DNA of 64,000 nt, taken from the NCBI RefSeq assembly GCF_000026545.1, contig NC_011601.1. One strand, 5' to 3'. Numbering within the stretch: position 1 is the first letter of the stretch; each line of letters begins with the position of its first letter. The position numbers and the translations under genes are program-made. This DNA comes from Escherichia coli O127:H6 str. E2348/69 (lineage in GTDB: Bacteria; Pseudomonadota; Gammaproteobacteria; Enterobacterales; Enterobacteriaceae). The notes below the pieces were generated by a model. It saw nothing but the letters and a program-made list of their open reading frames with translations. It was not told the origin of the DNA and did no database searches. Positions 43,840 to 49,916 of this stretch are shown here, piece after piece.

Positions 43840-44598
43840 ATGAGCCAAATTTTACTGCAACCTGCTAACGCGATGATTACGCTGGAAAACGTCAATAAAT
43901 GGTATGGGCAATTCCATGTTTTGAAAAATATAAATTTAACCGTACAACCGGGAGAACGGATCGTTCTGTGTGGCCCTTCTGGTTCCGGTAAATCGACAAC
44001 CATTCGTTGTATTAATCATCTGGAAGAACATCAACAGGGACGGATCGTAGTAGATGGCATCGAACTTAATGAAGATATCCGCAATATTGAGCGCGTCAGG
44101 CAGGAAGTGGGAATGGTCTTTCAGCATTTCAATCTCTTCCCTCATCTGACCGTTCTACAGAACTGTACCCTGGCACCGATTTGGGTACGCAAGATGCCTA
44201 AGAAAGAGGCTGAAGCTCTGGCGATGCATTACCTTGAGCGGGTGAGAATTGCCGAACATGCCCAGAAGTTTCCCGGACAGATTTCAGGTGGTCAGCAGCA
44301 ACGCGTTGCCATAGCACGTTCACTTTGTATGAAACCAAAGATCATGCTATTTGATGAACCTACGTCGGCGCTCGATCCGGAGATGGTGAAAGAAGTGCTG
44401 GATACGATGATTGGGCTGGCGCAGTCGGGTATGACAATGTTGTGTGTAACACATGAGATGGGGTTTGCACGAACCGTCGCTGACCGGGTGATTTTTATGG
44501 ATCGTGGGGAAATAGTGGAGCAAGCTGCACCTAATGAATTTTTTGCGCATCCTAAATCAGAGCGTACGAGGGCATTTTTATCGCAGGTAATCCATTAA
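43840..44598 (+). CDS. yhdZ: Amino-acid ABC transporter ATP-binding protein YhdZ, 252 aa
   Basis: ORF track; Walker [13 protein letters not shown] signature [13 protein letters not shown], Walker [12 protein letters not shown]. Confidence 0.95.
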
Positions 44599-44620
44599 TT
44601 GAATGTTAGTTCGAAAAGCA

Positions 44621-44647
44621 AAAAGGCCATCCTTTCGGATGGCCTTT
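44621..44647 (-). terminator. rrn operon terminator (also 3' of yhdZ on the opposite strand)
   Basis: aaaaggccatcc-tttc-ggatggccttt hairpin with T-run on the minus strand immediately downstream of the distal 5S gene. Confidence 0.7.
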
Positions 44648-44658
44648 CGCTTGATTTG

Positions 44659-44778
44659 ATGTCTGGCAGTTCCCTACTCTCGCATGGGGAGACCCCACAC
44701 TACCATCGGCGCTACGGCGTTTCACTTCTGAGTTCGGCATGGGGTCAGGTGGGACCACCGCGCTACTGCCGCCAGACA
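44659..44778 (-). rRNA. rrfF: 5S ribosomal RNA (distal copy, rrfF position)
   Basis: 120-nt reverse-complement match to E. coli 5S rRNA with a few substitutions. Confidence 0.93.
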
Positions 44779-44815
44779 AATTCTTTTCTAATCTGCCGAA
44801 CTTTAACCTAAAAAG

Positions 44816-44891
44816 TGGTGCTGATACCCAGAGTCGAACTGGGGACCTCACCCTTACCAAGGGTGCGCTCTACCAACTGAGCCATATCAGC
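44816..44891 (-). tRNA. thrV: tRNA-Thr (anticodon GGU)
   Basis: Reverse complement reads GCTGATATGGCTCAGTTGGTAGAGCGCACCCTTGGTAAGGGTGAGGTCCCCAGTTCGACTCTGGGTATCAGCACCA, recognised as E. coli tRNA-Thr; located between the two 5S genes as in rrnD. Confidence 0.93.
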
Positions 44892-44903
44892 ACGCTAAAT
44901 TTG

Positions 44904-45023
44904 ATGCCTGGCAGTTCCCTACTCTCGCATGGGGAGACCCCACACTACCATCGGCGCTACGGCGTTTCACTTCTGAGTTCGGCATGGGGTCAGGTGGGAC
45001 CACCGCGCTAAGGCCGCCAGGCA
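44904..45023 (-). rRNA. rrfD: 5S ribosomal RNA (proximal copy, rrfD position)
   Basis: 120-nt reverse-complement match to E. coli 5S rRNA. Confidence 0.93.
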
Positions 45024-45116
45024 AATTCTGTTTCATTAACCCGCTTGTCGCCGGTTAATCTAATCTGTATCAGGCTGAAAATCTTCTCTCATCCGCCAAA
45101 ACATCTTCGGCGTTGT

Positions 45117-48020
<2,904 letters not shown>

Positions 48021-48213
48021 TCACAACCCGAAGATGTTTCTTGCGATTCATCATCGTGCTGCGAAAATTTGAGAGACTCACGAACAACTCTCGTTGTTCA
48101 GTGTTTCAATTTTCAGCTTGATCCAGATTTTTAAAGAGCAAATATCTCAAACATCACCCGAAGATGAGTTTTGAGATATTAAGGCAGGTGACTTTCACTC
48201 ACAAACCAGCAAG

Positions 48214-48289
48214 TGGCGTCCCCTAGGGGATTCGAACCCCTGTTACCGCCGTGAAAGGGCGGTGTCCTGGGCCTCTAGACGAAGGGGAC
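48214..48289 (-). tRNA. tRNA-Glu (anticodon UUC) in the 16S-23S spacer
   Basis: Reverse complement reads GTCCCCTTCGTCTAGAGGCCCAGGACACCGCCCTTTCACGGCGGTAACAGGGGTTCGAATCCCCTAGGGGACGCCA, recognised as E. coli tRNA-Glu; it is the only tRNA in the 354-bp spacer. Confidence 0.93.
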
Positions 48290-48374
48290 GTATCAGTCTG
48301 CTTCGCAAGACGCCTTGCTTTTCACTTTCTATCAGACAATCTGTGTGAGCACTGCAAAGTACGCTTCTTTAAGG

Positions 48375-49916
<1,542 letters not shown>

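What the first reader, a model, noticed from the sequence alone, without database searches (positions are those of the whole stretch)
44659..45023. The two tandem 5S genes differ from each other and from the canonical 5S sequence
The distal copy begins (as RNA) TGTCTGGCGGCAGTAGCGCGG and the proximal copy TGCCTGGCGGCCTTAGCGCGG, so they differ from each other near the 5' end. This is consistent with the known divergence of the extra 5S gene in rrnD and is probably neutral heterogeneity; I have not verified which positions match K-12.
Basis: seen in the sequence. Interest (0 to 1): 0.12.

Follow-up and report, generated by a model that had tools for sequence, protein, structure and literature searches.

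The report
Two ordinary 5S genes in rrnD
The two neighbouring 5S ribosomal RNA genes really do differ at four bases, but both are standard, widespread E. coli versions (one is this strain's normal 5S, the other the long-known extra 5S gene of the rrnD operon), so the finding is ordinary.

Summary
The window is E. coli E2348/69 (EPEC O127:H6). The region is the end of the rrnD operon, on the minus strand: 23S, 5S, tRNA-Thr(GGU), 5S, terminator, yhdZ.

The two 120-nt 5S genes differ at four positions: 3, 12, 13 and 117.

- **Distal copy (44659-44778):** 120/120 identical to K-12 rrfF. Its U3-A117 replaces C3-G117, a compensated pair in helix I. Its 5' part with the upstream spacer is exact in about 89% of complete E. 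coli genome records. The whole gene is identical in Salmonella diarizonae, Citrobacter sedlakii and five other hits from other genera.
- **Proximal copy (44904-45023):** differs from K-12 rrfD only by G13U, in loop A. It matches the 5S of rrnA, rrnB, rrnC and rrnE in E2348/69, so it is this strain's own standard 5S. About half of E. coli genomes carry the same allele at this site.

Both score well above the Rfam 5S threshold (93 and 90 bits; threshold 38).

More unusual features lie just outside the finding: rrnD carries a tRNA-Glu spacer while rrnE carries Ile+Ala, the reverse of K-12, and the rrF small-RNA module after the distal 5S is missing.

The parts
44904..45023 (-). Proximal 5S rRNA gene (rrfD position). 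C3, C12, U13, G117. Differs from K-12 rrfD only by G13U (window 45011).
   Evidence: Rfam RF00001 93.2 bits, model 1-120. Alignment A1. Identical to the 5S of E2348/69 rrnA, B, C, E.
44659..44778 (-). Distal 5S rRNA gene (rrfF). U3 (44776), A12 (44767), G13 (44766), A117 (44662). 120/120 identical to K-12 rrfF.
   Evidence: Rfam 90.2 bits. Alignment A1. Pair 3-117 is CG in 4 distinct sequences and UA in 1. Identical in other genera.
44816..44891 (-). tRNA-Thr(GGU), thrV, between the two 5S genes.
   Evidence: ARAGORN. Rfam tRNA 70.7 bits. Identical to K-12 thrV in the alignment.
44892..44903 (-). 12-nt spacer between the proximal 5S and thrV, beginning CAAAT as after every 5S here.
44779..44815 (-). 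37-nt spacer between thrV and the distal 5S, ending AGAATT as before every 5S here. Unique to rrnD.
   Evidence: A 97-nt query across it is exact in 4878 of 5463 records.
44621..44648 (-). Terminator hairpin (12 pairs plus T run) directly after the distal 5S. It equals the second (T2) terminator of K-12 rrnD. The K-12 T1 + rrF segment is absent.
   Evidence: terminator scan. (comparison with K-12).
45024..45116 (-). 23S-5S spacer with hairpin TTAACCGGCGACAAGCGGGTTAA. Same type as Nissle rrnD. Differs from K-12 rrnD and from the other E2348/69 operons.
45117..48020 (-). 23S rRNA gene of the same operon.
   Evidence: Rfam RF02541 2870.9 bits.
48214..48289 (-). Spacer tRNA-Glu(UUC). K-12, Nissle, EC958 and O169 rrnD have tRNA-Ile + tRNA-Ala here.
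48375..49916 (-). 16S rRNA gene of the same operon.
   Evidence: Rfam RF00177 1578.3 bits.

Best explanation
These are the two 5S rRNA genes at the end of the rrnD operon of E. coli E2348/69, the counterparts of rrfD and rrfF. Both are transcribed as part of the one long rrnD precursor (16S, tRNA-Glu, 23S, 5S, tRNA-Thr, 5S, terminator) and cut out by the usual processing enzymes, so rrnD yields two 5S molecules per 23S.

The proximal gene sits in sequence shared with the six other operons and is kept identical to them by recombination between operons (concerted evolution). In this strain the shared type has U at position 13, whereas K-12 has G. The distal gene has unique flanks (tRNA-Thr upstream, terminator downstream). 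It keeps an old paralogue-specific signature: U3-A117 instead of C3-G117 in helix I, plus A12.

All four differences lie within 13 nt of the 5' end or 4 nt of the 3' end of the gene. I infer that they persist because conversion tracts, which need flanking homology, seldom reach that far. Neither copy is damaged. G13U and C12A lie in the unpaired loop A, and the helix I change is compensated.

Shown: gene identity, positions, the alleles, their frequencies and cross-genus conservation, and the intact pairing. Inferred: co-transcription, processing, use in ribosomes, and the edge-of-homology reason for persistence.
For: - **Identity and locus.** Two full-length 5S matches, tRNA-Thr between them, 23S/16S upstream. 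Flanks are yhdZ and yrdA-aroE, as in K-12 rrnD.
- **K-12 comparison.** Distal = rrfF 120/120. Proximal = rrfD except G13U. The stretch from proximal position 14 to the end of the distal 5S is identical to K-12.
- **Structure.** All 30 tested pairs of the accepted 5S structure are standard pairs in every sequence. Pair 3-117 is the only one changed on both sides. Helix I is predicted for both copies.
- **Within-genome homogeneity.** The rrnA, B, C, E and rrnD-proximal 5S genes of E2348/69 are identical, of the C12 U13 type.
- **Population, proximal.** The 45-nt 5' end with U13 is exact somewhere in 4114 of 5463 records. The proximal 5S + spacer + thrV start is 100% identical in 29 of 60 evenly spaced records.
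- **Population, distal.** The thrV end + spacer + distal 5S 1-45 is exact in 4878 of 5463 records. Three sampled non-exact cases carry private SNPs, not conversions.
- **Other genera.** A 5S with the distal signature follows tRNA-Thr and is 120/120 identical in Salmonella diarizonae, Citrobacter sedlakii, Pluralibacter, Superficieibacter, two Pseudocitrobacter species and an Enterobacter. The proximal copy in Salmonella and Citrobacter is the K-12 rrfD type.
- **Processing flanks and terminator.** AGAATT before and CAAAT after are the same for all copies. A terminator hairpin follows the distal copy.
Against: - No expression or ribosome-incorporation data were available here.
- The cross-genus search required an exact match to the first 43 nt of the distal allele. 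It therefore cannot show how many genera lack the signature. Only positions 44-120, including A117, were free to vary.
- The edge-of-homology explanation is not distinguished from selection for the U3-A117 pair.
- rrnG and rrnH of E2348/69 were not retrieved, so 'all other operons' means four of six.
- The 48% figure is a sample of 60 rows, not a full count.
Confidence: 0.9

Rival explanations
1. The distal 5S is a functionally specialised paralogue. Its U3-A117/A12 signature is kept by selection, for example for maturation in the context after a tRNA, or for a distinct ribosome subpopulation.
For: The same 120-nt sequence occurs after tRNA-Thr in at least seven genera and is nearly fixed in E. 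coli. The helix I change is compensated rather than degraded.
Against: The differences are a terminal-helix pair swap and one loop A base that other K-12 5S genes also carry (A12 in rrfA, B, E). Strains with the whole rrfF-rrsD region deleted, or with rrnC as the only operon, are viable laboratory strains (strain table in PMC9825170). The cross-genus sample was ascertained on the 5' signature itself.
Confidence: 0.07
2. The differences are recent strain-specific mutations or sequencing/assembly errors in E2348/69.
For: rRNA repeats are prone to assembly error. Two ATCC 25922 assemblies disagree about the rrnD spacer tRNA.
Against: Three independent E2348/69/O127:H6 records are 100% identical over 44400-45300. 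Both alleles are found unchanged in thousands of other genomes, and the distal one also in K-12.
Confidence: 0.01
3. The distal copy is a decaying duplicate (pseudogene) carried along behind thrV.
For: It is redundant (eight 5S genes for seven operons) and dispensable in the laboratory.
Against: It matches the full Rfam model at 90.2 bits and every helix pair is intact. It has no lineage-specific decay across genera. It has the same processing flanks as the other copies.
Confidence: 0.02

Closest known systems
E. coli K-12 rrfF (b3272), the second 5S gene of rrnD
   Same: 120/120 identical to the distal copy. Same position: 37 nt after thrV, last gene of rrnD, next to yhdZ.
   Different: In K-12 it is followed by terminator T1, the rrF small-RNA segment, a remnant of a 5S 3' end, and T2. 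Here it is joined directly to the T2-type terminator.
E. coli K-12 rrfD (b3274), the first 5S gene of rrnD
   Same: Same position, between 23S and thrV with a 12-nt spacer. 119/120 identical.
   Different: G13 in K-12, U13 here. The 23S-5S spacer hairpin upstream is of a different type.
5S rRNA family, Rfam RF00001
   Same: Both copies match the whole model far above threshold and keep all helices.
   Different: Nothing of note. Position 13 is not conserved in the family: the model consensus there is A (alignment).
rrnD-rrnE recombination in E. coli (the W3110 inversion)
   Same: The spacer tRNA types of rrnD and rrnE are exchanged relative to MG1655. Maeda et al. list the same arrangement for W3110 (PMC4696680).
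   Different: Here both flanks of both operons are in the MG1655 arrangement. This is therefore not a simple inversion but a double exchange or two conversions. It concerns the operon, not the 5S genes themselves.

Membership tests
5S rRNA (Rfam RF00001) | Covariance-model score at or above the gathering score over the full model | tested here: met
   93.2 and 90.2 bits against 38. Model positions 1-120 of 120 for both copies.
5S rRNA (Rfam RF00001) | Helices I-V of the accepted E. coli secondary structure can form | tested here: met
   30 of 30 tested pairs are standard pairs in all 5 distinct sequences. The 3-117 pair is compensated.
5S rRNA (Rfam RF00001) | Located downstream of a 23S gene in an rRNA operon | tested here: met
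   16S, tRNA, 23S, 5S, tRNA, 5S on one strand.
5S rRNA (Rfam RF00001) | Mature RNA incorporated into 50S subunits | not testable with these tools
   No expression or ribosome data. Inferred from intact sequence and conservation.
rrnD operon end (rrfD-thrV-rrfF) of E. coli | Chromosomal position between yhdZ and yrdA/aroE | tested here: met
   Window 48322-52153 matches the K-12 rrsD-yrdA-aroE side at 98.6%. yhdZ lies downstream.
rrnD operon end (rrfD-thrV-rrfF) of E. coli | tRNA-Thr(GGU) between two 5S genes, with 12-nt and 37-nt spacers | tested here: met
rrnD operon end (rrfD-thrV-rrfF) of E. coli | Distal 5S carries the rrfF signature U3, A12, A117 | tested here: met
   Identical to K-12 rrfF.
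K-12-type rrnD operon as a whole | 16S-23S spacer with tRNA-Ile and tRNA-Ala | tested here: not met
   tRNA-Glu(UUC) at 48214-48289. K-12, EC958, Nissle and O169 have Ile+Ala. 58 of 60 evenly spaced records have Ile+Ala.
K-12-type rrnD operon as a whole | Dual terminator enclosing the rrF small-RNA segment after rrfF | tested here: not met
   The roughly 170-nt T1-rrF segment of K-12 is absent. The distal 5S abuts the T2-type hairpin.

The most novel reading that the evidence does not exclude
The tRNA-Thr-linked distal 5S gene is a distinct 5S paralogue maintained by selection across Enterobacteriaceae, not merely sheltered from gene conversion. It would give a defined minority class of ribosomes, or a 5S species with its own maturation route.
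Probability: 0.07. Interest if true: 0.35.

Novelty: already known. Interest (0 to 1): 0.08.

Why it matters
It matters little. The result documents ordinary intragenomic 5S heterogeneity and shows that K-12 is not a good 'canonical' reference for position 13. About three quarters of complete E. coli genome records carry the U13 type somewhere, and about half carry it at this site. It gives a small textbook illustration of concerted evolution: the proximal gene is homogenised with the other operons, while the distal gene keeps a compensated end signature shared with other genera. The neighbouring structural variants are more useful to people who study rRNA operon recombination or the RrA/B/F small RNAs. 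These variants are the Glu versus Ile/Ala spacer exchange between rrnD and rrnE, and the loss of the rrF module.

Tried and rejected
- **Chimeric query.** I joined 5S 1-45 to thrV 1-45 to count U13 specifically at rrnD. It reported only 10 records at 99% or above. This was an artefact of how pieces are joined and averaged. Rows with both pieces exact (168 bits) were listed at 98.9%, and in some records the distal 5S was used. Direct alignment showed that the proximal copies of Nissle and EC958 are identical to the window. I discarded the count and replaced it with a contiguous 162-nt query.
- **Junction query.** A query across the distal 5S/terminator junction was confounded by similar 5S + terminator ends of other operons (93-95% matches with full coverage). 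Only a rough estimate survives: about 40% of genomes have the direct junction.
- **MFE folding.** It reproduces helix I but not the accepted inner 5S structure. I used it only for helix I and took the accepted pairing.
- **Exchange boundaries.** I tried to locate the rrnD/rrnE exchange boundaries from 16S and 23S variable sites. E2348/69 operons are too homogenised. The result shows only that the rrnD-specific 23S motif at 2203-2215 and the 23S-5S spacer are native.
- **Literature searches.** Searches for the original 5S heterogeneity and rrnD-end papers found nothing in the held library. My attribution of these facts to the older literature (Brownlee, Sanger and Barrell; Duester and Holmes 1980) rests on memory. 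The K-12 reference annotation is the tool-based evidence that the difference is known.
- **rrnG and rrnH of E2348/69.** Not retrieved, because their positions could not be guessed cheaply.

Full report
**What is in the sequence.** Rfam and ARAGORN show one rRNA operon on the minus strand:

| Feature | Window coordinates |
|---|---|
| 16S | 48375-49916 |
| tRNA-Glu(UUC) | 48214-48289 |
| 23S | 45117-48020 |
| 5S, proximal (93.2 bits) | 44906-45021 |
| tRNA-Thr(GGU) | 44816-44891 |
| 5S, distal (90.2 bits) | 44661-44776 |

The Rfam gathering score for 5S is 38. A terminator hairpin at 44648-44621 follows the distal 5S, and the convergent gene yhdZ follows that.

The stretch 44400-45300 is 100% identical to three independent records of E. 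coli E2348/69 / O127:H6. The flanks are yhdZ on one side and yrdA-yrdB-aroE on the other. These are the flanks of rrnD in K-12 MG1655.

**The observation.** I aligned both copies with all eight K-12 5S genes. The quoted 5' strings are correct. The two copies differ at four positions.

| Position | Proximal | Distal |
|---|---|---|
| 3 | C | U |
| 12 | C | A |
| 13 | U | G |
| 117 | G | A |

- The distal copy is identical to K-12 rrfF at all 120 positions.
- The proximal copy is identical to K-12 rrfD except G13U. No K-12 5S gene has U13.
- Position 12 is already polymorphic within K-12: A in rrfA, B, E, F and C in rrfC, D, G, H.
- From proximal position 14 through thrV and both spacers to the last base of the distal 5S, the window and K-12 are identical.

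**Structure.** I counted pairs on the accepted E. coli 5S secondary structure. All 30 tested pairs are standard pairs in all five distinct sequences. The only pair changed on both sides is 3-117, which is C-G in four sequences and U-A in the rrfF type. Helix I is predicted for both copies by free-energy folding. Positions 12 and 13 lie in the unpaired junction (loop A). The Rfam consensus at position 13 is A, so that position is not conserved in the family (alignment). Neither copy looks damaged.

**The proximal copy is this strain's normal 5S.** I retrieved rrnA, rrnB, rrnC and rrnE of E2348/69. Their 5S genes are all identical to the rrnD-proximal copy, of the C12 U13 type. Measured against its own genome, only the distal gene is the odd one.

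Population figures for the U13 allele:
- The first 45 nt with U13 are present exactly in 4114 of 5463 E. coli records.
- A contiguous 162-nt query (proximal 5S, 12-nt spacer, first 30 nt of thrV) is 100% identical in 29 of 60 records taken at even steps down the ranking. These include O157:H7, O111:H8, LF82 and a BL21 derivative.
- That same query is 99.4% identical in 26 of the 60 records, including the K-12 strain RP437.

U13 at this site is thus an allele at roughly one half in the species. In Salmonella diarizonae and Citrobacter sedlakii the proximal copy is the K-12 rrfD type with G13, so G13 is probably the older state.

**The distal copy is an old, nearly fixed paralogue.**
- A 97-nt query (thrV end, 37-nt spacer, distal 5S 1-45) is exact in 4878 of 5463 records.
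- Three sampled non-exact cases carry private single changes (spacer; C35U; G18A) and keep the signature.
- An exact search for the first 43 nt of the distal allele in one genome per species found ten loci.
- In Salmonella enterica diarizonae, Citrobacter sedlakii, Pluralibacter, Superficieibacter, two Pseudocitrobacter species and an Enterobacter, the 5S lies about 110-115 nt after the start of a tRNA-Thr gene. It is 120/120 identical to the window's distal copy, including A117, which the search did not require.
- Pseudocitrobacter faecalis also has a 5S in the proximal context with U3 and A12 but G117. That is a U-G wobble, and it looks like a partial conversion between the two copies.

One caveat applies. 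The search was anchored on the signature itself, so it cannot say how many genera lack it.

**How it most likely works.**

*Shown:*
- Both genes lie in one operon.
- Both have the same immediate flanks as the other 5S genes, AGAATT before and CAAAT after.
- A terminator follows the distal copy.

*Inferred from established knowledge of rRNA operons:* both are transcribed in the rrnD precursor and released by the usual 9S/RNase E pathway, so rrnD supplies two 5S molecules per 23S.

The proximal gene is embedded in sequence shared with the other operons and is homogenised with them. The identical 5S in five E2348/69 operons, against K-12's own mixture, is what concerted evolution predicts. The distal gene has unique flanks, and all its distinguishing bases lie within 13 nt of one end or 4 nt of the other. 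My inference is that conversion tracts, which need homology on both sides, rarely include them. Selection for the U3-A117 pair is the alternative, and I could not separate the two.

A specialised function seems unlikely. The changes are conservative. Laboratory strains lacking rrfF-rrsD, or keeping only rrnC, are viable (strain table of PMC9825170).

**Comparison with what is known.** This is the known rrfD-thrV-rrfF arrangement. The rrfD/rrfF difference is already in the K-12 reference annotation. From memory, the two-5S end of rrnD was described by Duester and Holmes in 1980, and G/U heterogeneity at position 13 was seen in the original 5S sequencing. I could not retrieve those papers in the held library.

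Membership as 5S rRNA genes and as the rrnD operon end is met on every testable feature. Two features of the K-12 rrnD operon as a whole are not met, and both lie outside the finding:
- the spacer tRNA is Glu, not Ile+Ala;
- the dual terminator with the rrF segment is absent.

**Things seen alongside.**

1. *Spacer exchange.* E2348/69 rrnD has tRNA-Glu while its rrnE has tRNA-Ile + tRNA-Ala, the reverse of MG1655. The flanks of both operons are unchanged. Fifty-eight of 60 evenly spaced E. coli records have Ile+Ala next to yrdA. At least 40 and fewer than about 90 of 5432 records have Glu there, among them CFT073, 536 and APEC O18. Two ATCC 25922 assemblies disagree, so some cases may be assembly errors or real inversion variants. 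An apparently reciprocal exchange suggests a double crossover, or an inversion followed by re-inversion, between the inverted rrnD and rrnE. This is related to the W3110 rrnD-rrnE inversion (PMC4696680).

2. *Missing rrF module.* In K-12, rrfF is followed by terminator T1, the segment reported as the rrF small RNA (PMC8144298), a remnant of a 5S 3' end (AACTGCCAGACATCAAAT), and T2. In the window the distal 5S runs straight into the T2-type terminator. This is what a deletion between the 18-nt direct repeats would leave. The rrnA and rrnB ends of E2348/69 also have a single terminator. The module is found in 3945 of 5426 E. coli genomes.

3. *Spacer hairpin types.* The 23S-5S spacer hairpin exists in at least three types with paired changes.

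**Verdict.** Both alleles are common and already represented in reference genomes. Interest is low.

Noticed in passing
window 48100-48375 (tRNA-Glu at 48214-48289); compare L026:12607-12801 (E2348/69 rrnE): The 16S-23S spacer of rrnD carries tRNA-Glu, and rrnE of the same genome carries tRNA-Ile + tRNA-Ala. This is the reverse of K-12 MG1655, although the flanks of both operons are unchanged. The yrdA-16S-tRNA-Glu arrangement occurs in at least 40 and fewer than about 90 of 5432 E. coli records (CFT073, 536 and APEC O18 among them). Two ATCC 25922 assemblies disagree. It looks like a reciprocal exchange between the inverted rrnD and rrnE operons.
   Followed up: partly
window 44615-44672; compare L001:2196-2440 (K-12): K-12 has terminator T1, the rrF small-RNA segment (PMC8144298), a remnant of a 5S 3' end, and T2 after rrfF. 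The window lacks the roughly 170-nt T1-rrF part, and the distal 5S abuts T2. This is as expected from deletion between the 18-nt direct repeats AACTGCCAGACATCAAAT. E2348/69 rrnA and rrnB also end in a single terminator. The module is present in 3945 of 5426 E. coli genomes.
   Followed up: partly
window 45035-45065 (23S-5S spacer): The spacer hairpin TTAACCGGCGACAAGCGGGTTAA differs from K-12 rrnD (TCAGAACGCAGAAGCGGTCTGA) and from the other E2348/69 operons (TCGACAGGTCATAACGTGACGTGTTGA). Changes occur on both arms. Nissle rrnD shares the window's type.
   Followed up: partly
L012:179-298 (Pseudocitrobacter faecalis): A 5S gene in the proximal (post-23S) context has U3 and A12 like the distal type but G117. 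This gives a U-G wobble at pair 3-117, apparently a partial conversion between the two copies and a possible intermediate of the compensated change.
   Followed up: no
L017:490-640 (Escherichia whittamii): Between the proximal 5S and thrV lies an inserted segment resembling the inter-terminator module, ending in a second copy of the 5S 3' end (AAACTGCCAGGCATCAAAT). Such modules seem to move among rrn operon ends by recombination at 5S 3' ends.
   Followed up: no
window 48028-48136: There is an Rfam match to StyR-44 (120.8 bits) in the spacer just upstream of the 23S gene. This is a known family that lies inside enterobacterial rrn spacers.
   Followed up: no
window 45806-45818 (23S positions 2203-2215): A five-base motif in the 23S gene is specific to rrnD. 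It is shared by E2348/69, Nissle and K-12 rrnD and absent from E2348/69 rrnA, B, C, E and from EC958 rrnD. Part of the 23S therefore escapes homogenisation too.
   Followed up: no
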